Under the pieces are notes generated by a model. The model was given only the letters and a program-made list of their open reading frames with translations, ran no database searches and had not been told where the DNA came from. This document shows, one piece after another, positions 547-38,819 of a stretch of 64,000 nt of DNA (the stretch's first letter is position 1; each line of letters begins with the position of its first letter). Source of the stretch: Azolla caroliniana. Taxonomy: Eukaryota > Plantae > Polypodiophyta. Both the position numbers and the translations under genes were made by a program. The DNA is taken from assembly GCA_043228905.1 (NCBI GenBank), contig JBHGNT010000003.1, positions 16,864,001 through 16,928,000 on the forward strand, read 5' to 3'.

Positions 547-616
547 TGGAATGTAGGGGGTTGAACCCATGACCTCCTAGTCTTATTGGACAACCTTACC
601 AATTGAGCTACATCCA
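547..616 (-). other. tRNA-like Pol III A-box/B-box module inside the Ty3 LTR
   Basis: Minus strand reads TGGATG-TAGCTCAATTGG-TAAGGTTGTCCAATAAGACTAGGAGGTCATG-GGTTCAACCCC-CTACATTCCA. A and B boxes have tRNA-like spacing. No clean anticodon arm. Confidence 0.65.
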
Positions 617-675
617 TCTATGCATTATTGTATTGTAATATAAGTTTCAACTTATTACATTCTATGTTAATCACT

Positions 676-695
676 AGAACTTTCAAGAAACTTCT
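676..695 (+). promoter_or_regulatory. Perfect 4-unit heat-shock element in the LTR U3
   Basis: aGAActTTCaaGAAacTTCt, about 90 nt upstream of the TATA box at 782. A partial HSE-like unit follows (tctaGAAgtTTC, ~719-730). Confidence 0.6.
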
Positions 696-1013
696 AGCGA
701 ATGCATCTTCATGCACGCTCTAGAAGTTTCCATGCACTCTCTAGATGTTTCCTAGCTTTCATGCATACTACCACATTCTTGTATAAATACTTCGGTGCAC
801 CTTGATTACAATCAAGGTGAACAACACCAATTACGGAAGCATAATTTAGTTCGTTCTCTTTTGTCTACCTTCTCTCTCTCTTGTTCTCTCGTCTATGATG
901 TCTCTCTATCTATATATCTATCTTACGCTCTCTCTTAATATTTAGCTCGCCTACTTATCCCTGTCATGGTCTACCCGTCCGTGATATTTTGTTCACCTTC
1001 CCTTCTTGTTACC

Positions 1014-2260
1014 ATGTCCGACTTGGCCTTAAGCCAAGTAATGGCAGCCTTGGAACAACTTAAATTAGAAAATTAAAGCCTTCGTCAATCATTACGGGAG
1101 CTTTAAAATAGCACAGCCAACAACCCTCCACCCGTTGAGCCTCACCTTCCGTTAGCACCTAACCCAACCCCTTCCTCTTCCCATTTATATGTCCTCGAAC
1201 CTAACGTCAGCCTATTTGACAAATTCAACGGCTCGAGGGCGCATCTTTGTGGCTTCATCAATCAAATTTGGCTTATCATCCGCTTACAACCCCAACGTTA
1301 TGCTAGCGATTTCTCTCGGGTTGCCCTCGTTGGCACGCTTCTCTTGGGGCTAGCACAAGCGTTGTTTGCACCATTGATCGAGACCTCATCCCCACTCTTA
1401 GACAATTTTCCTGCCTTCTTGTAGAGCTTGAAGCCACATTTGGAGAGACAGATCGACGACGAACAACACTCACGAAACTCTATACCTTACAACAAGGCTC
1501 TCGTCCAACTTCCGTCTATGCTTCAGAGTTTCGTCAGATCATGTGCGATGTCAATTGTGATGACCAAGCTTTATGCGACCAGTTTCGTCGAGGCCTCAGA
1601 AATGATGTCAAGACTCTTCTCTTAAACTTTCCGGAGCCCACATCATTGTCCTAGGTAATCTCCCAAGCTGTTCATGTGATAATTTTCTTTTCGAGCTACG
1701 ACAAGAGGAACGTGGGACTCGAGGCTTTCCGTCTTCCTCCCACAATGCTCCACTCACAAGGCCATATATATCAGTTTTGCCAAGCATGCCATGGTTGCCA
1801 TCTTCCAATGATACTCATACCCCGATGGAGGTCGACCCCCGTACCCCAATGGAGATTGACAATGCTCGGTTCCAACCATTAACCGATGTCCAACGACAAC
1901 ATCGACGTGACAATGGCCTCTACCTCTATTGTGATACCCCCACCCATGTCATTCGCCATTGCCCGATGCACAACCCTCATCATCAATCCCACCGTGCACG
2001 TCTTGCAGAGGTTTCTCGACAACAAGAAAACGATCATGCATGTCTTACGGAGGTTTCTGGACAACAGGAAAACAAGAAAGTATGGCTACAATAGGAGCCA
2101 TGCCGCTGGACATTTCCCATCGCCCTACTTCTCTATGCTCCTACAATTCAATCACGCCAGCAGGAGGTTTTACTTTTCAAGTCTTTGTTTTGGGTCTATT
2201 TCAATAAAATCCCATGCCTTGCTCGATTCTGGTGCATCGACTTGTTTCATCGATATCGCA
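1014..2260 (+). pseudogene. Degenerate Ty3/gypsy gag and start of protease (Tcn1/PEG10-like)
   Basis: Translations include DKFNGSRAHLCGFINQI, PMEVD/PMEID, a zinc knuckle (YLYCDTPTHVIRHCP) and the protease motif ALLDSGASTCFID. Contains stops and frameshifts. Cut at 2260 by a copia insertion. Confidence 0.85.
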
Positions 2261-2309
2261 TGTAAAGAAATGAAGAGGCAAGAGTGGTTGTAATGCAACA
2301 GAAGATGAG

Positions 2310-2389
<80 letters not shown>

Positions 2390-5300
2390 CAAATGAGAGA
2401 GAGAGATAGTGAGAGCTTAAGACAGAGATAATCAAACTGTATATTACATAAGACTTCCAACAGTCACTAAGTTACAATGAGTTGGTTTATATACCAACTA
2501 AGCTAGGGCAAGCGCCCTTTCTGCTATTTACAAAACTAGCCTGGTATGTCCATGGGTTAGTGTGAACCTATTCCTATGGGAAGTTGAGTTTGATTCTCAA
2601 CACACCCCTTCGAACACAACTTCCATCTGTTCGGTTTGAAGTTCGGCGTACATATTTGCGTATCAATGCGTACTCTGCGTACTCCCCCTCAAGCTCGGCA
2701 ATGTAGGCGGCATGAGACCAAGATCCGATGCAAATTGCCGGAGCTTGTCTACTCCTAAGGCCTTCGTAAATATACCAGCAACCTGAAGGTGTGTGTTGAT
2801 ATGTTGGAGATCGATTTCCCCGGCTTGTACGCGCTCGCGAATGAAGTGGTAGTGCACTTCGATGTGTTTAGTCTGTGCGTGAAAAACGGGGTTGCGCGGC
2901 AAGTAGATACTGCTCATGTTGTCGCAGTACAAGCATATTGGATCTTTGATGGGAACGCGCAGATCCTTCAGTACGCGCTTAAGCCATACGGCTTCACATG
3001 TGGCGACTACTGCACCCCTGTATTCGGCTTATGTGCTCGATAGTGCGACTGTCGGCTATTTCTTGCTACTCCAGGAGATCGCTCCACTTCCGAGGGAGAA
3101 GACGAATCCGGATGTGGATCATCTATCTACTTTGTATCCTGCCCAATCCGTGTCTGTGTACCCTCCAAGTCGAACTGTCGTATTCGACTTATATAAAATG
3201 TCGTGATCCATTGTCGTACTAACATACTGTAGTACCCTCTTAGCACAATCGAGATGAAGGTTACGCGGATTCTACATGAATTGACTAAGTAGGCCGACCG
3301 AATAACTTAGGTCGGGTCGCGTAATGGTGAGATAGATCAAGCTATCGATCAGTTGGCGATACTGAGTCGGTTCAATCTCGGTCGTGCCGGAACTGGCATC
3401 AATCTTGATATTGCGATCAAGAGGGGTACTCACAGGTTTGCACTCTATCATTCCGAATTTGTAAAGTAAGTTGAGGATGTAGTGCCGTTGTGAGATCATT
3501 ATCCCGACTGGTGTCCGAATTACTTCAATACCTAGGAAGTAATGAAGTTCGTGCAAGTCTTTCATTTCGAATCTGCCAAAAAGAAGTGATTTAACTTTGT
3601 TAATCTCGGCGAGATCCTTTCCTCCGATGACCAAATCATCCACGTACAAGATGATGATTATCAGGCTATCCGACTGTTATCGTTGCGGATGTACAGGGAA
3701 GTGTCGGATTTTGACATCCGAAATCCGACTTGATGAAGATATTGCGTGATCTTCGAATGCCAAGCACGCGGTGCTTGTTTGAGGCCGTGGTGTGCGGATG
3801 TTTACGTGATTCAAATACGGGTTGTATCATATAAACTTCTTCTTCTAGCTCTCCTTGGAGGAAGGCATTTTTCACATCCATCTGGTGGAGGTGCCACCCT
3901 TTCGCTGCGGCGAGTGCAATTACGATTCGTACTGTTGTCATCTTTGCCACCGGGGCAAAGGTTTCTACGTAGTCTACACCGTGTGTTTGCGCGTATCCTT
4001 ATGCAACGAGCCGTGTTTTGAAGCAATTTACAGAGCCGTTGGTATTATGTTTCACTTTGTAAATCCACCTACAACCAATCGTTTTCTTGTTCGGGGGATG
4101 AGGAACGAGATCCCATGTCTCATTTTTACATAACGCTTCCATTTCCTCATTCATCGCATTAACCCATCGCGGATCCTTCACGGCTTCAGAAAGCGTTTCT
4201 GGCTCCCGTACTGACACTACCTTGATCATGAAGGCATAATGATACGCTAAGTACTCGTCATAACCGTAGCGGTTTATGGGGTTCTTCTCACACGTAGATC
4301 GACGTGGCTTGTCGTTTGCAGACTCTAGAGGTTTCTTCACGCTGTCCGTGTGAATGTCAAGGCCTTCAAACTCATTGTCAAGATCGAAATGATCTTCGTA
4401 TTCTTGCATTTTCGCCTTGCCTTTGTCTAGCTTTGGACTTGGCCGAAATGTGCTTTTATCACTTGGGGGCTCTTGCGGTCCACTCAGTCGTGTCGTAGTT
4501 GGGCTGTCTTCGAACATCTGTGTGAGCCGATCCTCGACTTCTATTCTTATTTCGGTGTCATCCGCGTCGAGCGGAGTCAAAGTATTCTCTGGTGCGTACC
4601 AAGATGTGGACTCATCGAAGACTACGTCTCGACTTATGCGAACTTTTCGAATAGATGGGTTGTAGCATTTGTACCCCTTTTGTTCGAGCGAGTATCTCAC
4701 GAGGATACTTTTCTCCGACTTTGGATCAAGCTTTTGCCGCGTATTGTCGGGAATGTGTACATAGGCGATTGAGCCGAAAATGCGGACATGCGATAAGTTC
4801 GGCTTCTTCCCGAAAAACTTCTCATGCGGAGTTATGTCGTGTACTCCTGAGGTTGTGCACCTGTTCATGAGATATACGGCTGTATTTGCCACTTCTGCCC
4901 AGTATGATTTCGGCAAGTTCTTCTCATTCATCATAGCTCGCGCGACTTCGACTATGTGCTTGTTTTTCCGCTCTGCTACGCCGTTTTGCTAAGCCGTATG
5001 TCGGCACGAAAACTCTCGTTGGATTCCTTCTTTTTGGAGATACTTTGTGAACTCATTCGAAAAGTATTCTTTACCTCTGTCTAATTGAAGGCAGCGTACA
5101 TGACGGCCCATAGCTTTTTCTACTTTGGCTTTGAACTTCTGTAAGTGTCTGAACACTTCGCTCTTCTATCTCATTGGGTAGATCCAGGTGTTCCTAGAGA
5201 AGTCGTCGATGAGCGTGACATAGTATCGGCATGCGCCGAATGTAGTTGTTTGGGTTGGTTCCCATACATCTGAATGTATTACATCCAGGATCCCTTTGCT

Positions 5301-7002
5301 CACATTCCACTCATTAGGGAATGGGTGACGGCGTTGCTTTCCAAATTGGTATGCTTCGCACACGCCCGTGATCTCCTTTGCCGTAAAGTTCGGAAGTCCG
5401 ATTACGACTCCTTTCGTCTACATGTTCTGAAGCTTCTGGAGATTAATGTGGCCGATCCTCTTGTGCCACAATTTCAAGTTAGTTTTGACTTTCTGGCCCT
5501 TTGCGTACATGGCCGACTTTACCTCGCTCGACTCGAGGATGAACATACGGCCTTCACAATGGTCGTGGGCTACGATTCGATCGCCTTTTTCGATAAAACA
5601 ACCATCATTGTTGAATCGTACTTGCATTCCCTGTTCAACAATCCAACCTACTGAGATCAGGTTCTTTGTGATTGTTGGGACATGCAACACGTTCTTGAGG
5701 TAAGTCTGGTCCCCGTCATTTCCGAATGGGACATTCCCGATATGTTGTATTGAATGATTCATGTCATCGCCAGTCTCGACATATCCGAGTTGATCGGGTT
5801 TACGCAGTTCCCGGAAACAATCTTCATGAGATGTCATATGGTTGGACGCACCCGAGTCAACAAACCATACACTATTTGAGGCGGAGGCGCTAGTTGAAGC
5901 CTATGCGGACATTGAGTGTGCTTTATGCCTCATTACGAACATTCCGCCACGATCGTCATAGTCAGAATTTGTTGCATAGTTCGTGAGTTGTCGGCCTACC
6001 TCACGTTTCTTCTTCTGGCACTCTTCTTCGTAGTGGCTGGGTTTTCCGCAGTACCCGCACTCAACTAGGTTTTGGCGATTGCTCAGTCCGGCGTTATGAC
6101 TCCCCCTTCTGCCAAGTTCTCTGGGCCTGTTCCTGTCTGCTTGCCACTGGTGGGAGTTACGCCCTTGATTCCGTCGATCATTATGGCCTTGTCCGAAATG
6201 ACCTCTTTTTCCACGACCGAAATCTCTTCTATTATCCGACTGGGAGTAGAGAAAATGACCATTTGATGCGTTGCTCCTCTATTGGGCATGATTCTCTTCG
6301 ACCAGTAATATCTATTGAAGGTCGAAGAAGCAGGGAGGGTTCTCCCTTGCAAGAATGGCTAATCTAATCGCGCCGAAACGTGGTGCTAAGCCTCCGAGGC
6401 ATATCTACACAAGTTCGTCATCATCGATAACGACGTTGATCGATCCGAGGGCGTCACATAGCTCCTTGATCTTCAAGGTATAGCTTGAGATTGACATGTC
6501 CCTTTGTTGGATGCTATTTAGCTCCTGACGAAGCTGGAGCTTGTGTGCGGCCGTGTTGGCTGCGAAAATCTTTTTGAGATTTTCCCACGCCTGCTTCGGC
6601 ATTTTTGCCTCTCGAATGTAGCCAAGCATATGATCATGAACGCATGATGCTAGACAATACAACACATGGCTCGCGGCCTGCTCCCAAACGGGATAGTCGG
6701 CGTGTGTTGGGTTGGGTTGTGTTTCGTGAGCTCCTTCAATGTAGCTCCAGTAACCTTGTCCGACAAGGTATTGATGCATCTTGTACTCCCAAGATGCAAA
6801 GTTCATTCTGTCGAGCTTCTCCGTAGGAAGAGCGCTTCCCATCTGAGTGTTCATGGTGATTTCTTCTTCTGTTGATTAACCGGTTCTGTTGATCGTCGGC
6901 GTGCAGCACAACACAATTGAATAGGCGTGATCAGACAACCACACGCTCTGATACTATGTAAAGAAATGAAGAGGCAAGAGTGGTTGTAATGCAGCGGAAG
7001 AT

Positions 7003-7047
<45 letters not shown>

Positions 7048-7197
7048 AACAGATGAGAGAGGGAGTGAGTGAGTGAGAGCTTAAGACAGAGATAATCAAA
7101 TTGTATATTACATAAGACTTCCCATAGTCACTAAGTTACAATGAGTTAGTTTATATACCAACTAAGCTAGGGCAAGCACCCTTTCTACTATTTACAA
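2261..7197 (-). mobile_element. Ty1/copia element A (degenerate gag-PR-INT-RT-RH)
   Basis: 3' LTR 2261-2602 (TGT...ACA) with PPT aaggggtg. 5' LTR 6957-7197 is truncated. Mutated tRNA-iMet PBS (tagtatcagagc) at 6945-6956. ORF fragments: Gag KLDRMNFASWEYKM, PR FVDSGASNHMT, INT HSDVW...[19 protein letters not shown] and YVDD, RH YCDNMSSI...KHIEVHYHFIRE. Confidence 0.95.
2308..2387. repeat. (GT)n microsatellite inside the copia A LTR; shorter copy at ~7005-7046
   Basis: Read directly: about 40 units in the 3' LTR versus about 21 in the 5' LTR. Confidence 0.95.
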
Positions 7198-10100
7198 TGA
7201 AGAAGAATCTATGTATGCATGAGCAAGATAGACACAAAGGGAGAGATAGAGATAGAGAGGCACAAAGGATACGTTATATTCCAAATAGCAATTGTTACAA
7301 CAATGACAAGAACAACAACCTTCACTAAAGGTTACAAAGTCACTTTATATAGTGACTATCCTAGGGCAACTACCCTTTATGTTATTTACAGAAATAGCTC
7401 GAACTTGGGTTGTCCAAAGGGACAGTGTGAATACAGCCATTATACGCTTGTATTCGACACTCCCCCGTAATGGGCATATACATGGGTTATCTTAAAGAAT
7501 TACAGGTATATATACAAGGTTTATTGGACAGATCGGTTTTGTTAGAGTCGGCAAGATCCAAAGACAAAAGACCGAATTGGTCGGGTCGGAAGAGCTAAAG
7601 TCGATCCTCAGAGAACCGATGTTGGTGGCCCAAAACCGTCCTGTGTGGTGCCGAAGGGACCGGAAACGATCAGCCGAAAGACACTTGGTCATTCCATCTG
7701 CAACATTATTGGTTGTGGATATCTTCTCTAGACCGATTTTCCCTGAAATGACGCAGCCCCGAACGAAGTGATATCGAACGTCGATATGCTTGGAGGCGTT
7801 GTGGTGAACCGGGTTTTTTGACAAAGCAACAACACCCTGACTATCGCTTTAGAGCATTGGAGCCGAGTCGGAGTCGACCTATCGAAACGTGTGCGCCAGC
7901 CGACCGAGCCATAAAGCTTCTTTTGCCGCGTCGAACGCCGCTACATATTCCGCTTCGGTCGTTGAGGTGGTTGTGCACTCCCGAAGTTTCGACTTCCACC
8001 AGATTGCTCCATTGCCGAATTTGAAACAGTATCCGGTTGTTGATTTCCGACTGTCCACACAACTGGTGAAGTCCGAGTCGGTGTAACCGACTATGCCTAA
8101 GGTTGAGTTCGGGCCGAAAAGAATGTCGTGGTCTTTTGTGCCAGCTAGATATTTGAACACATGCTTGATTGCTTCCCAGTGCAATCGGTCGGGGTTGTGC
8201 ATGAATCTGCTGACGACTCCTATGGTGTGAGAAATATCAGGTTGTGCCACGACCATCGCGTACATAAGGGAGCTGACTGCCAGTGCATACGGTACCGACT
8301 TCATATCTTCCCCCTCTGAACCGGATGACGGGCAGTCTCGCTGAGATAGCCAAAGGTTAATGGGGAGCAGGGTCGAAGCATACTTGGCTGAGTGCATGTT
8401 GAAGCATTCCAAGACATGTCCAATGTAGTCGGTTTGAGACAAAAAAAGTTGTCGTTTATCATGATGCCAACTAATCTTCATACCAAGTATGTGTCTTACC
8501 GGACCAAGGTCCTTCATGGCAAACTTCAATCGCAGTTTCCGAACGAGTTCGGTGAGCTCTCCGGCATGCCGGCCGGAGAGGAGCATATCGTCCACGTAGA
8601 TGATGAGGAAGACGAGAGACCCGTCTTGAGTTGTTTTGGTGAAGAGACAATGGTCCTCATCGCTCTTTGAGAAGCCGACCTATTGGATGAAGTCGTCGAA
8701 CTTCTTGTACCACTGTCAGGGTGCCTATTTGAGGCCGTAGAGACTCTTCCTGAGTCGGCAAACTAGATGTTCCTGGCCGGATGCCAGAAAGCCTTTCGGC
8801 TACTCCATATAGATTTCCTCCTGTAGGTCACCATGGAGGAATGCCGTTTTTACGTCTAGCTGAATCAACTCCAAGTTGTTGGCGGCCACGACGCCGAGCA
8901 TGAAACGAAGGGTCGTCATTTTTACCATTGGTGAAAAGATTTCGTCGAAGTCGACACCATATTCTTATCGGAATCCCTTCGCAACTAATCTGGCCTTGTA
9001 CTTTGGGTTGGTTGAGTCGGACGTCTCTTTTAGTCGATAGACCCACTTACATGGAAGAACACGTCAATTCTTCGGTAATTTGACCAAGTCCCAAGTCTTG
9101 TTTGCCCAAATGGAGTGCATTTCCGACTCCATCGCCAGATGCCATGTGGCTGAATCGGAAGATGCCGATGCTTCTTCATAAGACGTCGGTTCACCGGTGT
9201 CGGTAAAGAAAATTCTGGAGGTTGCGACAGTCTCTCGGATCTTCAAGGTATGACTGGATTGGTCGCATCGAGTATAGGTGTTAGATGGTCAAAAGCCGAG
9301 CCACTCGGTTGTGCTGAATCGGTGGATTCAGTGCGGGAGGTGTCGGTTACCCATGAAACCGATCCCGTGTTGTGGGTTGGGCCTTCATGAAGGGTTGGCA
9401 CTTCGGAGAATATTACCCTTCGGACTTCAATAGACCTTTCGGCCGTTTTATGCATAGTCGACTCATTGAACACGACATCCGAACTTCAGACGATTTGTCT
9501 GTGCTCGGGGTCCCAGAGTCGGTATCCGATCTCGCCGTCAGGTTCATACCCAAGGAAAACACATTTCCTTGATCTTGGTTCAAGTTTCCCGCGATCGTCT
9601 TTCGGTATGAGGGTGTATGCCTCGCAACCGAAGATCCTCAGCTTGTCATAATTCGGCTTACTGCCGGTCCATATTTCCTGAGGTATTTGAAGTCCTCGAG
9701 ATCAACTTGGCGACATATTTATTATGTGTACTGCCGTAAGTAGAGCCTCCGCCCAAAAGCCATCCAACAGTCCGGAGTGTTGGAGCATGGATACTACGCA
9801 TTCTTGAATCGTCTGATTCATGCATTCTGCAATTCCGTTCTGCTCCGGACTATGGGGTGTCGTATATTCACGTCGAATGCCGCGTTCCCGGCAAAATTTG
9901 ACGAATTCGTCGGATTTGAATTCTCCTCCGTTGTCGGTTCGGAGACATTTCAGTTTTCGACTGGTCTGATTTTCGACCATTGCAAGCCATTCGGAGAAGA
10001 TCGAGAACACTCGATCTTTGGTTCTGATGGGGTAAGCCCACACCTTCCGAGTCGAGTCGTCAATAAAACTGACGAAGTACGAAGCACCTCCGAGAGACTG

Positions 10101-11736
10101 ATGTGGCATCGGACCACAGACGTCCGAGTGGACCAAATCGAGGGGACTCGATTCCCTCGGTGCTGATGTCGAATGTGATGCGGCTAAATGTTTGCCATAT
10201 TGGCAATGCTCGCAAAATTGGTGATCCGAGAAGGAGAGCTTGGGGATGTAACCAGCTTTGGATAGGTGCGTTATGTTGGCCTTGCTGAGGTGTCCAAGTC
10301 GTCCGTGCCATAACGATGACACGGGGATATCAACGAAAAATAAGTCACCCTCTTTGAGTGTGACATATAAGGGGTACAAAGAGTGTACCTTCGGTCCTCG
10401 AGCAAGCAGGAGGTTCCCTTTGTGGAGTGTCCACCCTCCTGATGAGAATCCGGCACGGATGCCGACTTCGTCAAGTTGTCCGACTGAGATCAAGGGCCTT
10501 GAGAGCTCAAGAACGTGTCAGACGTTGTGTCGTACGAGTGTAGAGCCACCCAGAAGGTTGAGCTCTACGATGCCGATTCCGATTATAGCACAGTGCTACG
10601 AGTTTCCGACTCGAACTGAGTCGGAGTGCCAGTCCGAGTATTGCCGAAACTGAGATCAGTGAGGTGTCACATGATACGATGCGCCCGAGTCCAGGAGCCA
10701 TGTGCTCGATTCCTCAGTCGTAACAGAAGTTGAAGTTCGAACCGTCGAACCTCCTTAGACTCATCTCCGAAGAGCCGGATGTTGATGCCATCTGATTCGG
10801 TTTTGGTTGGGAAGACTCGTTTCGGAGTTGACTACAAACCGTAGTGGGGTGCAGCCACTCGGCTCACCTGATATCGTTCTAGTCGGTTTTGAACCCGAGT
10901 CGGTTTGGTTTCAATACTTGTTGTTGAACCTGCTCGAAGTGACTCCGCTAACTTGTGGGACAGAACCAGTTGGTCTTCCCGAATGTTGCCGAGTCGAAGT
11001 GAGCTCGGTTAGCTTCCGATTGTATGCCAAATACCGATTACGCGAAACCAATTGTTTGGGCTGATTTTGCTTCGGATGACTACAGCGATGAGAGGGACGG
11101 ATCCAACTGATCCTCCCGAATGTCGATCAGCCGAGTGAAGCACGAGTGGTTGTTGCCGGGAGACCAATCTGCAGCGGGTGAATAGCGTCCGATGAAGCAC
11201 GATTGGGTCGGTTGTTGCTCAAGGAGCTACCCTCAAGCGATTACAATCACAGGAACAGAGTACGACTGATTGGCTTACTCCAATTTGTGATTTAACACAG
11301 TGAGATGCGAGCTCTTCGTCTTTTTCTTCTCCCTTCTCTATTCTTCAAAGAAAACGAAAACAGAATGTTGTGTTGTGCGATGACGGCCGGCAGCAGGTTC
11401 AAGAACCTCCAACGCTCTGATACCAAATGTTGGGGACAAGGCCGTCAATGCGGAAGTGCAAGCAACATTCGTGATGAAGAAGAACCTGTGTATGCATGAG
11501 CAAGATAGACACAGAGGGAGAGATAGAGAGAGAGAGGCAAAAAGGATACGTTATATTCCAAATAGCAATTGTTACAACAATGACAAGAACAACAACCTTC
11601 ACTAAAGGTTACAAAGTCACTTTATATAGTGACTATCCTAGGGCAACTGCCCTTTATGCTATTTACAGAAATAGCCCGAACTTGGGCTATCCAAAGGGAC
11701 AGTGTGAATACGGCCATTATATGCTCGTATTCGACA
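7197..11736 (-). mobile_element. Ty1/copia element B1 (Tnt1/Tork-like), gag deleted
   Basis: 5' LTR 11428-11736. PBS tggtatcagagc at 11414-11425. 3' LTR 7197-7459 lacks its last ~47 nt. PPT gggggag. INT (HSDVCGPM, RTDNGGEF), RT (YVDD) and RH (GYTDSDF) present. Same family as 48165-53825. Confidence 0.95.
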
Positions 11737-27800: not shown

Positions 27801-30800
27801 GATTCTATATGATTCCTTCTGTCCTTCTAGTAAGGAGAGGTCCAAGAAAATCTCAATAATGCAAATAGAAGCCAATTGCTATTCCATCTTTTCCCGGACA
27901 AACATCCTTACCTAAGGATTTAGCGGCATCAAAAACCTCCTGAGATGTAAATGGTTGTAATAACTGAGAGGCCATTACATCTGTAACCTTTTGTTGAATA
28001 GTTGCAAGAAAAACTTGTTTCTTGTGAAAACTGTTTGTCGTAAAAGATTCAGTTGACAATAACTTATGATAATAATCTGAGACTATACTTCGCATCTCAG
28101 AGACATCTGACATATAGGATCCATCAACCCGCGTCAACAAAGTAATAGAAAGAGGTCTAGTTTTCTGTTTAAACTGATTAAAGAATTTCTTATTGACCCG
28201 ATCTTGCCTTTGCGACCAACGAGCAACATTACGATAGTAAAAGAACATCGAGCGTGCTTCCTGTTTTTCCCTTAAACCGCTTTTTACTTACTGCAAATCA
28301 CAACATAGCACATATGAAGTTGGATACCTTTCCAACAATTGTTGTAATGTTGCAAGAGCACGACGTAGATTGGAAATTTCTGAATTGCAGTGATAAACAG
28401 ACGCTAAAACTATTTTTGTAAATAGAATCTTTGTGTCGAGTATGGCATGAGCCATATTGCTAAGTAAACAATCATCCGAGAAATTGTAATTTGACCATAT
28501 CTGAGTGATTGACATCTGATGACTATCATTAGATAACAATGTAGGAGGGATACACAATTGCCTAGAGTGTCGCCTCTTAGTAAATGTGACATGTAACTTC
28601 AGAGGGTCGTGGTAAAAAAACACTACTAGCATAAAATATATCTAGTCGAGACAAATTTGTACCTGCTTCCCAAAAAACACTACTAGCATAAAATCTATCT
28701 AGTCGGGACAACTTTGTAGCAACCACACTCCCATCTGATCTAGAAAACTGAAGGGATCCTTGTATACGTGAAAATGAATGCACCTTCCATAAATCCAGCA
28801 AACCATAGGCAAAACAAAAGTAGTCCCAACACTTTGCTTCCCATCCTGGAATTGTAATAGTTATACCTCCCATTCTGTCAGCAACATCCTCAATCATATT
28901 AAAGTCGCCTCCCACCAACCAACAATCCGTTAAACTCGCATAATTAGAAAGAAATAGCCATAACTTTGCCTTTTCTGCCGTAGAATTAGGGGCATAGAGA
29001 TTCATAAGGCCAACCTTTTGGGATCCTATTTTTACAATAAGGAATTGTGCCTGTTTATTCATAATAGTAGCAGCTAACACGATGATAGACTGCAAATGTT
29101 GTTTAATAGCAATGCATAATCCAGCTTGGCGGCCAGTGGGGCCAAAGGCAGGAATCCAGAAATGAGTCCACTGTCCCAGTAAAATAGATCCATACTTCCG
29201 AATCCTATCCATGCATAAGTGATGCTCTTGTAAAAAAAGAATATCAATAGTACCTACATTAACAGTACCTAAATCCGAGCGTAAGAGTTCTTTAAATATG
29301 CAAAAAGCCTGACCACCCAAGCCTTGCACATTCAAGGAAAGAAGATGTAAGGTGTCCATCTTACACAGATTTTATTGGTGTCCTTTTCTCAAGGAGACCA
29401 TCCTGACGGCCTTTCTGGGCACCCTCATGAGCTCTTGCTTGTCTTTTTAAAAGTAGATAATTCCCTGCATACTGATGCACCCTATGATCCTTAACCTGTT
29501 TTTGAGGGTTTTGAAGTGTTAGGGTATCCTGTGAAACTGTGAATTGAAATCCAACACAAGGGAGTTTATCTACTCCTTGAGCCATTTCAACACCCATAAT
29601 ATTTGATTGACTAGAAATAGGTTTTCCGTTGAGCTTATCAAAAGGAACCGAATTAACAGAGACATCAATTTGTTGGTTTGCTTCGATTCCCATAACACTT
29701 GGAGGCATTTCCACATATGTAGTATCTTGAACAGAAACACATTTTCCTTTTAATTTTTCAGAAGAAGCCAAATTAACAGATGGTGTCAACTGCTGATTCT
29801 CAACCATTTGCAAGGGTGGTTGGCCTACTACTAACATTGGGAAAGACAAGTTAGGCAACTGAGTGGAAAGCAAGTCTGTTTTTTGTGAGGAAAACCCCGA
29901 ATTAAATCTCTGTTGGGAAAGATGGGATGATGGTTGATCCGAAGTATTCAATTCGTTTGACCGATCCTCTTCTACATGGAGAGTAGAATACCGATTTTCT
30001 AATGGGGGGAATTCCTTTAAATTATTAATTGATGATGAGGTTGTCATGATATACCTATGAAGATGTCTTCCTATGCCCTACCTCGGTCCAACCATCAGAT
30101 CTAACCTTATACGAAACTATAGTTGTATTGGGTACATGCTTGATTGTGTGTTTATTAAATTTAGGGAATTTTTTTGCCAAATGGCCAAATCCAAAACAAC
30201 GAAAACATTGATTTGGCAAACCCTTATACAAGATTTTTTGAGAATAAGATTCCTGCCTTGAATCAAGTAAATTGGGCAACAAGATATTTGAGGGCAAAGC
30301 TGTCGACTTAGAAATCTAAAGTTTTGTAGATGTAGTTCCCATATACCTATCCTCGATCTGACGAAGCTTATCATAAGTTTCCAAGACTATACCAATAGTG
30401 CTGGCAATTGGATGCACAAAAGGCACCCATTCTTTACGTAAATTGGGAAACACCGCCACACAAGTATGATATACCTTATTTGCGGAAAAGTTGTGAATCC
30501 ACTAGTGGAAGAAAACCCATCCTCCCCTGATTGCCACATTTTTCTTCTCCAATAAGATCGGTACCATTCGTTTGAGCTCGAACTCCACTTGATAATAGTT
30601 CCGACTAAGCATTTGGACATTCGAGATGTTGTCAACATCTTGTTTCGAAGAGGCTTGCAACAGTAAACGAAGATTAGCACGCCGAGGATGAATGCCGAAA
30701 ACCTGCACAATGATAGTCCTCTTCTCTAGACGTTGAATCTCTCTTACGATCTGTGCTTGATCTCGTTTTGACAACAGAAGCTCTACTACGTTGTCCGAAA

Positions 30801-31165
30801 TAGGTGTGATATCTGGGTTAGCTGCACGGGAGCCCTGATTAGACTATTCGCGACGACGCAACAATTGCTCTTAGTTCGTGGTTGCATCGAGGAAGACTGG
30901 GGTTATGGAGGAGGTTGAGAGGCTGATCGCGACAACTGGATTGGATGTAGCAGGTAGGCTGAAGGGGACAAACGGCTTTTCCAAGGCTACTATGGGAGAA
31001 GCGGAAACCCCTACACATCCCTCAGGATGATTTAAACAACCATCGGCTATAGTAGGTTGGGCGGTGGCAGGTTGAGTGGTGGAAGGCTGAGCAACAGAAG
31101 GTTGAGCAATGGTAGACTGGACGATGACAGGCGATGTGGTGGTCTTCATTGTGTAGGTGATGTTA
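24878..31165 (-). mobile_element. Near full-length L1-like LINE (ORF1 plus EN-RT-zf ORF2, decayed)
   Basis: 18-bp TSD ttgattaaactttatctt (24860-24877 and 31166-31183) and an A-rich tail. ORF1 31149-29361 with zinc knuckle CFRCFGFGHLAK. ORF2 from 29359: EN (SLNVQGL, GGDFN, SRLDRFY), RT (DFEKAYD, VRQGCPLAP, FANDT), zf (CSFCHEPQETTKHVLWSC). Confidence 0.95.
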
Positions 31166-31183
31166 TTGATTAAACTTTATCTT

Positions 31184-31600
31184 AAAGTAGAAGCCATGTG
31201 AACTTTCATGTTGGAGATTGTATTGCCAATTCTTGTGATTTATAAATCGATTGCGAAAGTACTTGTGAATAGAATTACATCAGACTTGTGTACAAGGATC
31301 CATCAATATGGTTTTCACCATGATGATAAATTATGAACAACATTGCAAATGCAAATTATGGTGTCAATTATGTGAAATACACAAACCAAGATGTTGTGAT
31401 TATGTGGATTGATACTAAGAAAGCATTTGTTACCATACAATAGAGCTTTTTAGAAGCTACAATGTATAAAATGGGGTTTGAAATTCCAAAAGTTATTTAT
31501 TGGTTTGATTAGAATAGCTTTATTGCATGTACATTGGATGGAGAAATCATTGACTTGTAAACATTATTTAATATGGTTAGGCAAGGTTGGTAACTCTATG
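31184..31600 (+). pseudogene. Ancient LINE RT remnant split by the 24878-31165 insertion (other part ~24400-24877)
   Basis: Decayed motifs IYKSIAKVLVNRI, QYGF, IDTKKAF and VRQG. The reading WKHALIKLYLK runs across the TSD. Confidence 0.6.
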
Positions 31601-33199
31601 AGATGTGAGAGTCTCCATCTTGAGTTCCCTTTTGTTACCTCATTAACCTAGTGTGGAACCATGTAGGGAATTCTTGTTAGACAAACAAGGTATTAATATT
31701 TAATGTGCTTAGCGAGGATGGGCATGTGTTTAGCTTTCGAGATACAACAATACATTATAAATTAGGTCCACATCACAAATACATATGGCTCAAAATATTT
31801 GATCAACTACTTCCATTTACTCGCATGTCACTAGTTGAGGCATAATAGGGCTCTTGATCATGAATTAAAGAGTTATAACACATGTGTTCCCATGAATGCA
31901 CTATTCAGTCATATACATACACATCCAACTACTTCCACCTACTTGGGTTCACAGGCATGTAAATGCTCTTGGGCAAATCACTAAACCAAAGAGATGGTGG
32001 AAGGAAAACTAGTCATTATTTTTGTTTCAAATGTCATGGAGGATAAAAAAATACTACTATTTTATTGTTATGGACATGTCCATTAATAAGACCTTTTATT
32101 CATAAACTTAAATGCAAACTTTGACTTGAATGTCCAAACACACAATTTGGAAAGTTGTTTTCATTCTTGCCCTCCCTCATCAATTGCAAGAGGATGCTAG
32201 TTTTTTCCATTGACTTTGATTTTGGGTAACTTGGAATTATGCCATATTTGGGTAGCTATCTATTGTTGAGTTTTGTTTCTTTAAGTGCTTTATTAGAAAA
32301 TCTCTTTATGATTGTTTTCAATTAGCTGGAATCTCCATATGAACATTTCACCTTTATTTTGAGTTCTTTTGATCACTACAAGTTTGTAGATATTTTTGGG
32401 TTTTTTCTTCACATTGAGGTTTCCCATTGGTAATTGTGTATAAAGAAAAAATAAGAGCATTGATCTAATGACCTTGAATAGTCAATTGTCACATTGCACA
32501 ATTGGGATAATGGCATGTAATTTCAAGGTCCTTCGTGGAATTGGTCAAGGAGTGCTTGTTCATCCTCAATTTACATTGCATGCAAGATAATGGAACCCTA
32601 GTGCGTACATTGAAATTCCTCCTGAGCCGTGGTTTAATAAGTTTTAACATTTATCGGTCTCATAAAATGTGGCGTCTGATTCGATGAGGAAGGCAAAATA
32701 GGCCTCAAGAAGTGGCAAGGAAGTCTCCACCAATGGAGTAAAACAAGTTTGTGACAGTCTACTTAGGAGGTTGAAGCCTAATGACAAGAGGGCTTTAGGT
32801 GATGAATCCAATAAAACATTCCACCATACATGTTCTAATATCTTCAGCTAGACTACTCTAGGTTCAATGGATTTTAGTCATTAACATAATGTGCTAAATT
32901 GACTACTCTCATCACATGTGCACCAATTCCCCATCTCAGATTGTAGTTTGTTTGAGCGAAGTTACATGGAAGCAATGGTTCGAAAGGTAGACAATGGGAT
33001 GGGCTCTAACATGCATTGATGTGTGCAGTTTCCATGTTCAGCGAAGAATATGGTTTTATAGTTAGGTGCAACATATATAGTGTAATGTGCGAAGCGTGAG
33101 CACCCACATTTTTCCCATGTCATGATACATTGGCATTGCAAAAAAGCTACATTTAAATAGAGGAATCTAGTGATGCAAAATGAAGCAAGTATGTTCCAT

Positions 33200-35130
33200 C
33201 CCACATTCCAAACCATTTGTCCATATCCTGCATCCAACCAAAACACACAATTTTGCTTTTATGTGTCTTTGGATATTTTTTCTTGCTTCCCATGTTCGTC
33301 TAGGAAATCTATGTGAGGGACGTTTCTAAACCTTTCCATGTTCATGATCTCAATGGGAAGTGATCCCATCTCAAGAAGTAGAAGGGTGCATGACATTTGT
33401 TTCTAAACTTGGAGAAACTTATCAGAAAATGCTTTTGGACATTTTCAAACCCTTTCCATGATCTATGTGAGAGACTTTTCTAAACCTTTCCATGTTCATG
33501 ATCTCAATGGGAAGTGATCCCGTCTCAAGAAGTAGAAGGGTGCATGGCATTTGTTTCTAAACTTGGAGAAACTTGTAAAAAATGTTCTTGGACATTTTCA
33601 AACCCATTCCAATGTGACTTAGAGATGCTCTCACCCATTACTTCTACCCCATAGAGAAGCACTGATGTCACCAAAGTGTTGAAAACGTATTTCTTGAGGA
33701 CCCAACACTTAATTTCTCCACGTTTGCATGTGTTCTCAAATGTATAATATGTTTCCTTTCCTGCCTCCAAGCGTTGCGTAGCACAATCATTTCATCTATG
33801 ATTTGATGGAATATCAAAGACAAGGTATTTGAAGCATTCCACAATTTCGAGTGGCTCATTATTATACATAATGCATAGTTCATCCTTTTTATGGCTCTTC
33901 ACAAGCATAATCTTCGTTTGAGAGTTCTTGACACTCAATATGCATGCAAAATTCTTCCAGTGAACCCATAAGGTTTTGTACATCTCCTTAAGTATTTGCA
34001 AGAAACACTACATCACCCGCATACAACAAAAGCATGATGACAACATTTCCAATGACAACTTCATCAACACTTTCTTTTGTTGTATACTTAGCAACCATTT
34101 GTTCTAATTCATCAATGGATAGACCAAGTAGACTGGTGAGAGTAGGCATCTTTGCTTTACACCAATAGTGCTATTGAATTTTTTTGAAATTCCATTGCCA
34201 TACATACAAAACATATAACCTTCTCATAGAATTGGGAAATTGCAAGCATATGTTCACTTGATGCCTAGAGTCCTTCCTTTTGCCTTCAAAGATGCTCACA
34301 AGGTACCATAGCAAAAGATTTCTTGAAGTCTACGAAGAAACAATATCAACTCTTACCTCTCAAGCAACTTTCCTCCATTAATACTTGAGGGATGACAAGG
34401 TGATCAATGATGCTACCACGTTTCCGAACGCTAGCTTGTCCATAAGCTCTCTTACCCTTTTTTCCTACCCATGCATTTACCTTTGATTCCATTATACATC
34501 CAAATCGTTTTGTCATTCGTGAATTGACCATGATGGTTCAGTAGTTGTTATCATTATTTACATTTCCACCTTTATTTAAAGGTATGATCTAATTTGTAGT
34601 CTAATCGTAGGGGATGTCACGTTGCAATGCATGGTAGCTTGTCCATAAGCTCTCTTACACTTTTTTCCTACCCATGCATTTACCTTTGATTCCATTATAC
34701 ATCCAAATAGCTTTGTCATTCGTGAACTGACCATGATGGTCCGGTGGTTGTTATCATTATTTACATTTCCACCTTTATTTAAAGGTATGATCTAATTTGT
34801 AGTCCAATCGTAGGGGATGTCACGTTGCAATGCATGGTTAAACATATCCTTGATCTGTGCTTGTGCTTTCTTTCCCATCCATTTGAGCATTCCAACCTTT
34901 ATACATTAAATATATCTTGCCTTTCGAGAGACCAATTTCTTAACTCCTATGCATATATCTTCAATCATAAATAAGGGCGACATATGCAAAAGAGAACCAT
35001 AATCCAACATCTTTCCAACAATTGATAACTCATATATAGTCGTACAATGCATTGACCAATCCATAAAAGTTAAGTCACTATTATTCTCAATAGGTTTTCC
35101 CTTTTATATTCCTCCAAAATTTAGCAAATG
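33200..35130 (-). mobile_element. RTE-like LINE fragment (RT and C-terminal part) with two internal duplications
   Basis: Homologous to 35500-36280 in inverted orientation (STIGVKQ.C.LSP, FNTLVTSVLLYGVEV). Boundaries are approximate. Confidence 0.75.
34432..34837. repeat. 203-bp tandem duplication inside the RTE-like fragment
   Basis: tagcttgtccataagctctcttac...gttgcaatgcatgg begins at both 34432 and 34635. Confidence 0.9.
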
Positions 35131-35499
35131 CATATGTTTTTTCTTGTGTTTTGGATAAATTGTTGATAAAATTTTCACATTAGGGTGAAAAAAAACTACG
35201 ACGTACTAACTTTTGGCTAAGATTTTAGTACTAATTTGTTAAAACTAAAGAGCATAAAAACTAAAGATTAATCTAAGAAATGTATCGAAAAATATATCTT
35301 CACTCCTAAAATTTAAAGTCATTTAATGTGATTTTTTTAATCAAACAAGCAGACATGCATACAATGTCTCTCATTGTTTCTATATCTATCCATGTCTTCC
35401 TCATTTTTTCCAATATTTGAGGTTGTTATTGCTATACCGATGTGTTTTTTTTAATCGAACAAGCGCATGTGCGCGCGTGCACACAAACACACACACAGA

Positions 35500-36285
35500 T
35501 AGACTTTTAGTTTTTTTTGATAGCACTATTGGTGTTAAGCAAGGATGCCCACTCTCACCAACACTATTTGGTTTATGCATTGATGAATTGGAAGAAGTCA
35601 TTGCCAAGTTTGTAAAGGAAGAAGATGTTGAAGAAGTTGCCATTGGGAATGTTGTCATTATGCTTTCGCTATATGTGGATGATGTGGTGCTTTTTGCAAA
35701 TACTTTAAGAGATGCACAAAAGCTTATGAAGGCATTGGAATTTTTTTGCATGCATACTAAATTAAGTGTCAATAGCTCTAAAACAAAGACTATGCTTGTG
35801 ATGAGCCAAAAAGAGATAAACCATGCATTATGTACAATATTGAGCCACTTGAATATGTGGAAAGCTTCAAATATCTTGGCCTTGAAGTTCCTTCAAATCA
35901 TAGATGGAATGAATGTGCTACATGCAGCGGTGGGTAAGAAAGCATATTATGCATTTGAGAACACATGCAATCATGGAGATATTAAGTGTTGGAACCTCAC
36001 GAAATACCTTTTCAACACTTTAGGGACACCGATGCTTCTCTATGGGGTGGACATGGAAAGAGTTCGAAAATGTCAAAAAACATTTTCGTACAAAGTTTCT
36101 ACAAGTTAAGAAACAAACTCCCTACACCCTCCTTCTTGAGACGGGATTGCTTCCCAATGAGATCATGGCCATGGAAAGGGTTGTTAAATACATGCTTAAG
36201 GTTCAAAAAAGTCCCTCACATCGACTTCCTAGAATCGCATGGGAAGTAAACAAAAAGATCGAAAAGACGCATAAAAGAAAGATTC
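35500..36285 (+). mobile_element. 5'-truncated RTE-like LINE fragment
   Basis: STIGVKQGCPLSPTLFGLCIDELE...LYVDDVVL RT motifs followed by C-terminal LLETGLLP...RLPRIAW. Confidence 0.8.
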
Positions 36286-38032
36286 CTCTCTTAGTACTAA
36301 TATTCCTCTCTTAATACTAATTTCTTCTCTGTCTCAGTACTATTCTTGACATATAATAATATATATATATATAATAAATATACATACATACAAGTGAACA
36401 TGCATACATATGTTTTCAAGGACTAAAGACTTTTGGAAATCCACTTGCACCACAATAAAGACCATTTTTTTTTTCCAAAATGAAGCTACTTTCCCATTAG
36501 TTAGGAAGGATTATTACAAAGAGACTATACAAGGAGGCTTATACACAAATCGGGGAATCTCCATCTGATCAATTTCAAGAAAATGAGACTACTTACATAG
36601 CCTTTCAGACTGACTACTTAATGCAAGTATATACCTATAGCTAAAAGCGGTGTCGTTCAGTGTTGGCTAGTACGAGCCAACTCTTGGGGCCTACAACGAA
36701 GGGAGGGTGGTAGGTGAGTAGGAAACAACCAGCGTGGGGGCTGGTAGTTCCACCTCGGGCCACTTCCTCCTTGCGTCACCATAGGTGTGTTCCGTCATTT
36801 TTGCCAAAAGCGCAAATGGGCAGTGACCACGTCGTTGGAATGGCTGCAAACCTCGTCCAATTGCCCTCGTAGGCAGTTGATAAGTGCAAACCATATGTCC
36901 ATGATCACTTCCTCTAGGGCCGTACCAGATCTTGGAAGACCTTTAGGCAACGCGCTTTCCATACACACCGTAGGGTGAAGCTTGTGATCAACATCCAAAT
37001 TTCCGGGAACCTAGGGGATGCGGATTGCAAGCCTCTCTCAAAACGGATCTTGACAAATTTGCCTCTCGTGCATACATAGCACCAACTATCCGCATTGAAG
37101 GCGTCCGTCCACCTATCAACCGAGTGATCAATCCATGCCGCATCACTCCACGATGATGTTCCTTCCACTTCACATGTCGCAAGGAGGTGAGTCACTCTAT
37201 CCCATACCTTTTGAGCTTGAGGTCAATCCCACAAACAATATCTCAGAGTCTCAATAGGTGAAGAGTAAAGTGGGCAACCTAACGGGCCGCCACGTTTACC
37301 TCGCCATTCACCAACAAGAACCACATTATGACCGATCTGCCACCAAAAGAGCTTGATCTTTTCAAGCATGTGGAGACACCAGAGACCCTTCCAAAAGGTA
37401 ATGAGCATCTCATCAGGGATGCCTAATGTTCGCTAGTCATTGCCTAGGGGGGCGTCTAGCTGCAGTTGTAAAGTTTGGCCCAATTTAGTGATGTATTTGA
37501 AGAAATGGCAAAGTCTGTCGTCATGTTTCCACTTGAAATCCCTTGGGTTCCATTCTAGTTTGGCGAGAGGATGACAACCGTATACCCATAACTTCCAATA
37601 GGGTTCCACCTTAGCAACATCCGGGTCTGTTTTCCAGTTGTTATCAACCTGCGCTGTCGTGAAGATTTTCGGCAATAGTGTGAAAATCCCATAAAACGTA
37701 CGAAATCGAGTATGAATCACATAGTACAATAATTGTGAAGATAACATTTTAAATAGATTTAATATCTAATTATAAAATGATGGAGGTTTCGAATGCACTT
37801 TATTACACGAGAAACGGACAACTAAATGTCAAGATATGAGGGTATAAAGTTTGTGAAAGGAAAAGAGAAAATTGTGAGATATCCCACATAGGCACGACAA
37901 ATACAGCTCTCATCATATATAAGGTGGAGCAAAAGATATTATCTTTGTGTCTATGTGTGGAGCATAGAGAGTTCAAGGTAACTAAGAGTGGAGGTCGGCT
38001 AGCTACTCGTAAAGGGTTGTGGCCAACCAAAA

Positions 38033-38188
38033 CCGGACCGGCGATGGAGCCGGTGATCTGACAGCATCCGACAGCAATTCGGCACCGGTAACCGACAGCA
38101 TCCGGCGGTGGCACTGGCATCCGGCGAGGCACCGGTATCCGACGACGGCATCCGGCGATGCACCGGTAACCGACGGCATCCGGCGACT
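38033..38188. repeat. GC-rich degenerate tandem array in the gypsy LTR (second copy ~45296-45462)
   Basis: Repeated units caccggtaaccgac and ggcatccggcga. Unit arrangement differs between the two LTRs. Confidence 0.85.
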
Positions 38189-38235
38189 AGATAAATAAAT
38201 ATATAAATATATATACATATTTACATATACAAGTA

Positions 38236-38306
38236 GGGCAAGTAAGGATTCGAACTTTGCACCTCCAAGTTAAGAGTCAATTGACTTACCATTAAGCCAT
38301 GCTATT
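38236..38306 (-). other. tRNA-like Pol III module in the gypsy LTR (second copy 45519-45589)
   Basis: Minus strand reads AATAGCA-TGGCTTAATGG-TAAGTCAATTGACTCTTAACTTGGAGGTGCAA-AGTTCGAATCC-TTACTTGCCC. D-stem GCTT/AAGT and a Lys(CTT)-like loop CTCTTAA. Confidence 0.7.
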
Positions 38307-38819
38307 TAGTTGAAATTATATTTCTATCATTGTACTTTTACATGTAAATTCTCATACATGAGAGCTAAAATGAGTGACATGGTTATCAGGCACCACATGT
38401 AATACATAAGCGCCAAATGGCAAACATGCAATTTATGCATGTCTTGTACCCTCACATGCATCATATGCATGAGAGCATCTATAAAAGAGGGAAGGGGGAG
38501 GAGAAAAAACACGGTTTTTTTTTATTATGAAATTAAGAAGAAGAAATTCGTTATCAAATTGATGGTGTAACTTGTTTCTTAAATCCAAAGATAAAAAGTT
38601 CAATCGATCTTTCTCAATCGTTTAATCTTAACTTCTCTCTTTCCCAATCTATCTTAAGTACTTTCTCGCCAAAGCTTGTATCGACTCTAAATCCTTCCGG
38701 TCCAGAACCCCGGTAGTTCTGCCTCACGATCCATGCGTAGTGACAGATCTTCACTACATAATTAAGTGGTGAACCCGACGTGAACGAGGCGGTAGGAAGG
38801 ATCAAGTCGAGATTAATAC

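What the first reader, a model, noticed from the sequence alone, without database searches (positions are those of the whole stretch)
547..38486. Two unrelated Ty3/gypsy LTRs carry an antisense tRNA-like module at the same distance upstream of their TATA box
Seen: the chromovirus-like LTR (module 547-616, A-box 599-610, TATA 782) and the tRNA-Trp-primed gypsy LTR (module 38236-38306, A-box 38289-38299, TATA 38480; retained at 45519-45589) otherwise show no obvious similarity. Both contain gaac......acctcc.agt...cttacca.tt.agc.a on the + strand, which is an outward-facing A-box/B-box unit. In each LTR it is followed by an AT-rich spacer that reads on the minus strand like a plant Pol III upstream region (TATA-like plus CAA), then several CATGCA (RY) motifs, then the Pol II TATA. 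A-box to TATA distances are 172 and 181 nt. Known: TFIIIC-bound tRNA/B-box sites act as chromatin barriers in yeasts and mammals, and Cassandra TRIMs carry 5S-derived Pol III promoters in their LTRs. Inference: these LTRs may carry a built-in Pol III/TFIIIC module that insulates the promoter from silencing, positions a nucleosome, or makes an antisense small RNA. This is the best candidate here for an undescribed system.
Basis: partly seen in the sequence, partly recalled or inferred. Interest (0 to 1): 0.85.

Follow-up and report, generated by a model that had tools for sequence, protein, structure and literature searches.

The report
Backward tRNA relics in fern LTRs
Two abundant jumping-gene families of a likely fern genome each carry, backwards and just upstream of their main promoter, a broken tRNA-like piece that still has its polymerase III signal boxes; these are likely two separate captures from small mobile elements, and no job for them has been shown.

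Summary
The modules are real: minus-strand A-box/B-box units at 547-616, 38236-38306 and 45519-45589 (3 window matches, 0 in 100 shuffles). They are family traits, seen in 7 further family-1 and 11 further family-2 LTRs from metagenome contigs. The host is likely a fern. The families are a Tcn1-like chromovirus and a tRNA-Trp-primed non-chromovirus.

- A-box-to-TATA distance is not fixed: 148-183 nt (6 LTRs) and 134-201 nt (13 LTRs).
- The two modules are 58% identical, no closer than unrelated tRNA/SINE heads.
- There is no cloverleaf, no conserved terminator and no enriched upstream TATA.
- Module 1's head also occurs in a free ~230-nt SINE-like element in (AG)n (8 loci).

Best reading (0.5): two separate captures of tRNA-derived heads, tolerated because they face away from the promoter. 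A working TFIIIC/TFIIIB barrier or promoter-opener remains open (0.3): the boxes are intact, and in family 2 the module is the outer edge of the conserved promoter block. My sample was selected on the boxes, so selection on them is untested.

Closest known: Helenus TRIMs, but these hosts are protein-coding, antisense and keep a Pol II promoter. The scan noted similar antisense relics in gypsy elements of other genomes, outside LTRs.

The parts
533..986 (+). 5' LTR of element 1 (Tcn1-like chromovirus); the terminal TG and CA are decayed in this copy
   Evidence: LTR start and end shared with related loci, four of which show a purine tract just before the start; loose ends at 540
547..616 (-). 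tRNA-like module 1, 14 nt inside the LTR's outer end (14-23 nt in 7 relatives); A-box 599-610, B-box 558-567
677..765 (+). Element 1 enhancer block: alternating GAA/TTC pentamers (heat-shock-element-like; label recalled) and RY motifs at 710, 731, 760
   Evidence: the repeat number varies among relatives
782..789 (+). Pol II TATA box of LTR 1
989..999 (+). Likely self-priming site, complementary to 814-824 near the predicted transcript start
   Evidence: self-priming is typical of Tcn1 (PMC6317226)
1015..2260 (+). Broken gag/protease of element 1, cut off by a Copia insertion
   Evidence: DUF4939 hit at 1107-1421
37655..38758 (+). 5' LTR of element 2 (non-chromovirus gypsy)
   Evidence: 17 substitutions in 1090 aligned nt against the 3' LTR
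38236..38306 (-). tRNA-like module 2; A-box 38289-38299, B-box 38247-38256
38346..38487 (+). Conserved CATG/RY block and TATA box (38480) of LTR 2
   Evidence: 86-93% identity across 10 LTRs
38767..38784 (+). tRNA-Trp-type primer-binding site
38829..44839 (+). gag (DUF4100)-protease-RT-RNase H-integrase, without chromodomain; the integrase is interrupted by a short Copia-type piece near 43719-44066
44912..46042 (+). 3' LTR of element 2
45519..45589 (-). Second copy of module 2; TATA box at 45763

Best explanation
Each LTR family carries a broken, backward-facing tRNA-like head with intact A and B boxes at the outer edge of its promoter, likely picked up separately from a tRNA-derived SINE-like element and likely kept as a tolerated passenger. 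Shown: the boxes, the orientation, family-wide presence, loss of the cloverleaf, variable spacing, and a free element that shares head 1. Inferred: a head landed in one LTR, reverse transcription copied it to both LTRs, and it spread with a successful RY/TATA promoter cassette, in family 1 probably by LTR exchange between diverged pol lineages. Also inferred: the shared geometry comes from a filter. An insertion inside the enhancer-TATA block, or one that sends Pol III through it, would be lost, so survivors lie just outside that block and face away. TFIIIC may bind, but no benefit is needed to explain the pattern.
For: (1) Module 1 vs module 2 is 58% identical; 17 of 30 unrelated non-redundant heads are at least as close to module 1, and 10 of 30 to module 2. 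(2) 8 of 26 fern-like loci carry head 1 (82-87% identical) in a dispersed element with varied flanks and (AG)n ends, which also shares about 8 nt beyond the head with family-1 LTRs. 27 contigs leave the LTR at 619 with mixed flanks. Family-1 heads form one clade (99/94) among the free heads (75 columns). (3) Spacing to the TATA box is 134-201 nt. (4) Module columns outside my search pattern are no better kept than their neighbours: family 2, 0.75 against spacer 0.70 and RY block 0.86-0.88; family 1, 0.83 against 0.82-0.87. Against four-fold gag sites the figures are 27/36 vs 21/32, Fisher p 0.43. (5) No tRNA hit by ARAGORN or Rfam; folding z is -0.06 and +0.53, against -2.95 for the real tRNA-Leu. 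(6) Kojima found that 'not a few LTRs' hold tRNA-like sequence and proposes SINE insertion into LTRs (PMC10886601).
Against: (1) In family 2 the module marks where homology begins: upstream U3 is 0.48 identical and 133-630 nt long, R 0.60, U5 0.56, yet the module is kept. (2) B-box positions outside the pattern are nearly fixed: R57 26 of 26, A58 26 of 26, C61 24 of 26. (3) The two module variants among the 40 rows shown from genomic contigs keep the A-box consensus or complete a D stem. (4) The spacing between the boxes is identical in 11 of 11 family-2 loci, although the pattern allowed 14-19 nt. (5) In family 1, pol four-fold sites are near saturation between subfamilies (31-41%) while LTRs stay 60-92% identical; strong constraint explains this as well as exchange does. 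(6) No free element was found for head 2: 11 of 11 loci are LTRs. (7) One unstarred branch (92/97) groups both fern heads with three unrelated heads, so one ancient origin is not excluded.
Confidence: 0.5

Rival explanations
1. The module is a co-opted DNA element. TFIIIC bound to the boxes, with TFIIIB on the AT-rich spacer facing the enhancer, would hold off flanking heterochromatin or keep the RY/TATA block open; two gypsy lineages evolved this convergently.
For: Same strand and a similar zone in two distant lineages. Outermost position in LTR 1, 14-23 nt from the end, in a chromodomain-bearing element predicted to insert into heterochromatin. Retention through several U3 replacements in family 2. 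Intact boxes without a cloverleaf. CAA above shuffle expectation. TFIIIB/TFIIIC barriers are known in yeast (PMC9540200 passages).
Against: Spacing is free. Columns outside the boxes are not specially conserved. An upstream TATA is not enriched. The three Copia elements in the window lack any module. The same review says no yeast- or animal-type barrier homologs have been reported to act so in plants. Box conservation in my sample is built in by the search pattern.
Confidence: 0.3
2. The module is transcribed by Pol III into a defined antisense small RNA that tunes silencing of the element.
For: Intact A/B boxes and an antisense orientation.
Against: No conserved terminator. In family 1 the first T4 lies outside the LTR in 6 of 8 LTRs; in family 2 it ranges from 87 to 318 nt in 9 of 13 LTRs, three contigs ending before any T4 and one having it inside the head. 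No stable fold. The window's real tRNA-Leu has T-runs directly downstream.
Confidence: 0.08
3. In the element's RNA the module is complementary to a tRNA, so it acts as a 3' part of a split primer-binding site, as in yeast Ty3, and helps priming or strand transfer.
For: Ty3 uses U3 sequence to pair with the T and D arms of its primer tRNA (PMC5371799 passages). The strand sense fits.
Against: Element 1 appears to self-prime and needs no tRNA. Module 2's 3' third matches its own primer tRNA at only 3-5 of 15 positions. Element 2 already has a full 18-nt PBS. The D and anticodon arms could not be compared, because no tool returned a plant tRNA-Trp.
Confidence: 0.05

Closest known systems
Helenus / TRIMp3 (Kojima 2024, PMC10886601; parts 1-4 of 6 of the text and supplement passages read)
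   Same: A tRNA-derived sequence inside LTRs, conserved around boxes A and B, unlikely to be a working tRNA, proposed to come from a SINE insertion; one plant case, in Selaginella.
   Different: Helenus elements are non-coding TRIMs of 311-1263 bp whose Pol III promoter is thought to drive the element. The two Helenus LTRs I saw in the supplement passage read as sense-strand (by eye). Here the hosts are protein-coding gypsy elements of about 8 kb, the head is antisense, and a Pol II RY/TATA promoter is kept.
Cassandra TRIMs (bioRxiv 10.1101/2023.07.14.548913, passages; PMC10886601)
   Same: A Pol III promoter from a small-RNA gene inside plant LTRs, including ferns.
   Different: 5S-derived, non-autonomous, replaces the Pol II promoter and is transcribed in sense.
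Tcn1 chromoviruses and Phygy/Selgy-type non-chromoviruses (Neumann 2019, PMC6317226; Novikova 2010, PMC2864245; passages)
   Same: Element 1 has a chromodomain integrase (in relatives), a self-priming-type site and an LTR of about 450 bp. Element 2 is compact, lacks a chromodomain and has a Trp PBS.
   Different: The passages read mention no tRNA-like unit in their LTRs. Both papers place Tcn1 in mosses and lycophytes rather than ferns. I did not place either element on a reference tree.
tRNA-gene / TFIIIC chromatin barriers of yeast and mammals (PMC9540200, passages)
   Same: A/B boxes next to a promoter, at a boundary with possibly silent DNA.
   Different: No occupancy or barrier activity is shown here, and none is reported for plants in that review.
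Ty3 bipartite primer-binding site (PMC5371799, passages)
   Same: tRNA-complementary sequence in U3.
   Different: Ty3's sites match its own primer; module 2's tested third does not, and element 1 appears not to use a tRNA.

Membership tests
Helenus / TRIMp3 | tRNA-derived sequence with A and B boxes inside the LTRs | tested here: met
Helenus / TRIMp3 | Short non-coding TRIM (about 0.3-1.3 kb) | tested here: not met
   Element 2 is 8.4 kb with gag-pol; family-1 LTRs follow integrase-chromodomain coding sequence
Helenus / TRIMp3 | Pol III promoter oriented to transcribe the element | tested here: not met
   Antisense in 21 of 21 LTRs examined (3 window + 18 loci), with a Pol II TATA box downstream where the contig reaches it
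tRNA gene | Cloverleaf fold and ARAGORN/Rfam recognition | tested here: not met
tRNA gene | Oligo-T terminator just downstream | tested here: not met
tRNA-derived SINE (the free ~230-nt element) | Dispersed copies with varied flanks, tRNA head, body and simple-repeat end | tested here: met
   8 loci; 3 reach the far (AG)n end
tRNA-derived SINE (the free ~230-nt element) | Target-site duplication and a partner LINE tail | tested here: inconclusive
   Both flanks are (AG)n, so a duplication cannot be read; the body has no blastn match in the window
Tcn1 chromovirus (element 1) | Chromodomain at the integrase end | tested here: met
   PF00385 in L155 and L203; the window's own copy is truncated
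Tcn1 chromovirus (element 1) | Self-priming site instead of a tRNA PBS | tested here: met
   11-nt complement 989-999 / 814-824; sequence match only
Tcn1 chromovirus / Phygy-Selgy clades | Placement on an RT-RH-INT tree with reference elements | not tested
   The reference FASTA of PMC6317226 was too large to read
TFIIIC barrier / insulator | TFIIIC occupancy and block of silencing spread | not testable with these tools
   No ChIP, ATAC or methylation data on hand
TFIIIC barrier / insulator | Boxes under selection beyond their flanks | tested here: inconclusive
   Sample selected on the boxes; only 3 B-box columns were free to vary

The most novel reading that the evidence does not exclude
Protein-coding fern LTR retrotransposons of two distant gypsy lineages have convergently co-opted outward-facing tRNA-type promoters as a portable TFIIIC/TFIIIB barrier at the outer edge of their Pol II promoter, letting them stay transcribable inside heterochromatin. 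This would be a plant tRNA-type insulator built into a transposon.
Probability: 0.27. Interest if true: 0.78.

Novelty: new variant of a known kind. Interest (0 to 1): 0.42.

Why it matters
Even as passengers, the modules extend tRNA-derived LTR sequence from tiny non-coding TRIMs to high-copy protein-coding plant elements, in the opposite orientation and beside a Pol II promoter. They also offer a traceable SINE-head-to-LTR capture, a step that Kojima could only propose. If they work as barriers, they would bear on an open question, since tRNA/TFIIIC-type insulators are not reported in plants in the review I read (PMC9540200). Two high-copy families give a ready population-level test of selection on the boxes.

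Tried and rejected
- No whole genome is held for this window, so the all-copies test could not be run. Metagenome contigs are not held as searchable records.
- Viral-contig scans with gag1, an RT-RNase H stretch, an RT alignment and two LTR promoter patterns returned no relatives.
- Sequencing-run search: no RNA holder listed; no evidence either way on expression.
- Contig depth over the modules is of the same order as the rest of each LTR, with no spike at module 2. The tool warns that this is no copy number. Only 40 variant rows per call were shown (152 and 243 hidden), so box-position variants could not be read.
- A few single contigs skip part of module 1.
- No tool returned a plant tRNA-Trp, -Ala, -Lys or -Cys gene, so the source tRNA is unassigned. 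Module 2 has a CTT triplet at the anticodon position with a CTCTTAA loop in 8 of 13 LTRs. Its likeness to tRNA-Lys, and module 1's likeness to tRNA-Ala, are recalled only.
- Rejected: one shared module exchanged between the families; an incidental single-copy SINE insertion; functional tRNA genes.
- Rfam miRNA hits are low-complexity or palindrome matches below the gathering scores.
- Literature searches that found no description of this arrangement: (listings and abstract starts only, open-access library). The reference element sequences in the supplements of PMC6317226 could not be read and may hold moss or Selaginella cases.
Full report
Observation. The reverse complements of 547-616 and 38236-38306 read as tRNA-like units with an A box, a variable-loop motif and a B box. 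A pattern built from their shared letters matches three times in the window, the third at 45535-45580, and never in 100 shuffles. An independent generic A/B-box expression finds the same three sites and the real tRNA-Leu gene at 22202-22281, with a shuffle mean of 0.28. The TATA positions, the RY motifs and the distances 172 and 181 nt are as stated. Neither ARAGORN nor Rfam calls the modules tRNA, in the window or in 20 of the 26 related loci that I submitted. They fold no better than shuffles (z -0.06 and +0.53; tRNA-Leu -2.95).

Host and elements. The SUN-domain gene in the window has 4 homologs at E <= 1e-8; the 3 named ones are from Adiantum and Ceratopteris, so the host is likely a fern. 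Element 2 has LTRs at 37655-38758 and 44912-46042 that differ by 17 substitutions in 1090 nt. It has a Trp-type PBS and gag-pol with DUF4100 and no chromodomain; its named relatives are from Riccia. Element 1's LTR runs from 533 to 986, with an 11-nt self-complementary priming site, and relatives carry a chromodomain. That fits the Tcn1 description in PMC6317226 (passages), but I did not place it on a reference tree. The module lies 14-23 nt inside the LTR end in family 1, but about 130-630 nt inside it in family 2.

How I sampled relatives. No genome is held. I laid contigs of four genomic runs on both LTRs and scanned the metagenome collection with a relaxed module pattern. The scan returned 118 of an estimated 190 loci. 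Of these, 26 match the window's LTRs by blastn and 92 do not. The 26 split into 7 family-1 LTRs, 11 family-2 LTRs and 8 copies of a free element. All were selected on the A and B boxes, so box conservation among them is not evidence; species are unknown.

Family-wide, but not fixed in spacing. All 18 further LTRs carry the module antisense, at the same point relative to their own promoter block. The A-box-to-TATA distance is 148, 150, 169, 172, 182 and 183 nt in family 1 (two contigs end before the TATA box), and 134-201 nt in 13 family-2 LTRs. The variation comes from gain and loss of RY-containing repeats, so the 172/181 match is a coincidence within a broad zone.

Not one shared module. The two modules are 58% identical. 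Against 30 non-redundant unrelated heads caught by the same pattern, module 1 averages 58% and module 2 56%. The shared motif also matches 13 of 13 ordinary phage tRNA genes of several isotypes and 120 bacterial loci. Spacer-to-TATA regions do not align. A 75-column tree separates the two fern heads by long branches, but leaves one unstarred branch joining them with three unrelated heads, so one very old origin is not excluded.

A likely source for module 1. Eight loci hold the same head (82-87% identical) outside any LTR. They have varied, often (AG)n, flanks, a shared body, a second inverted and more decayed tRNA-like unit, and an (AG)n far end in the three copies that reach it. Family-1 LTRs share the head and about 8 further nt with it. 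In genomic contigs, 27 records leave the LTR at 619 with mixed flanks. LTR heads form a supported clade (99/94) among unresolved free heads, which weakly favours capture from the free element. No free form of head 2 was seen.

Tests of function. There is no conserved terminator, and an upstream TATA is not enriched; CAA is about 2.7-fold over shuffle among related sequences. In family 2, pairwise identity over 10 LTRs (L178, L216 and the window's 3' LTR left out as near-duplicates) is: upstream U3 0.48, module columns outside the pattern 0.75, spacer 0.70, RY blocks 0.86-0.88, TATA box 0.93, R 0.60, U5 0.56. The module is thus the outer edge of the conserved block but not its best-kept part. 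Against four-fold gag sites of one diverged pair it is not significantly higher (27/36 vs 21/32, p 0.43). In family 1, pol four-fold sites are 31-41% identical between L170 and L155/L203 while LTR segments are 60-92% identical. This means either LTR exchange or constraint on the whole U3, and does not single out the module. For function: free B-box columns are nearly fixed (R57 26/26, A58 26/26, C61 24/26), the spacing between the boxes is constant in family 2, and the two variants shown in unselected contigs stay box-compatible. The three Copia elements in the window have no module.

Mechanism. I favour separate captures of tRNA-derived heads that were fixed by LTR copying and carried along with a successful promoter (0.5). 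Orientation and position follow from what an autonomous element can tolerate (inference). It is attractive for a chromodomain element whose module sits at the very edge of the LTR, but it is untested, and PMC9540200 (passages) notes no such barrier reported in plants. A defined antisense RNA (0.08) and Ty3-like primer pairing (0.05; PMC5371799 passages; tested in part) are weaker. A tRNA-like stretch in HIV-1 U3 is a recalled parallel that I did not retrieve.

Comparison and novelty. It works like the capture step proposed for Helenus/TRIMp3 (PMC10886601), but is not a member, because the hosts are coding elements, the head is antisense and the Pol II promoter remains. Eight literature searches listed no description of this arrangement; the library is open-access only. 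Earlier scan notes report antisense tRNA relics in gypsy elements of other genomes, outside the LTR, and nothing by sequence for these LTRs. Verdict: a real, new variant of a known kind, with function open; interest 0.42.

Noticed in passing
L143, L158, L159, L160, L181, L191, L223, L256: A dispersed ~230-nt element set in (AG)n microsatellites, with two convergent tRNA-like units (one at each end, the second decayed). L256 has three extra tandem partial heads. Possibly an undescribed fern SINE-like family.
   Followed up: partly
window 677-765: LTR 1 enhancer: alternating GAA/TTC pentamers (heat-shock-element-like, label recalled) interleaved with RY motifs, forming a near-palindrome whose repeat number varies among copies.
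   Followed up: partly
L155, L203, L170: Chromovirus pol 3' ends with near-saturated synonymous sites share LTRs that are 60-92% identical, suggesting LTR exchange between diverged lineages.
   Followed up: partly
window 43719-44066: A short Copia-type integrase/SH3 piece sits inside the gypsy integrase of element 2.
   Followed up: no
window 38759-38766: An 8-nt gap between the LTR end and the Trp PBS in element 2, also seen in L152 and L173; longer than usual (recalled).
   Followed up: no
window 533-999: A Tcn1-like self-priming chromovirus in a likely fern; the two papers read place Tcn1 in mosses and lycophytes.
   Followed up: partly
window 14870-16198 (-) and 22202-22281 (-): A fern-type SUN-domain gene exon and an intact tRNA-Leu(CAG) gene among nested Copia, gypsy and LINE copies.
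   Followed up: partly
92 non-matching metagenome loci among L140-L257: Most look like tRNA-derived SINE heads of other eukaryotes (one family dominates one assembly) or true tRNA genes; used only as background.
   Followed up: no
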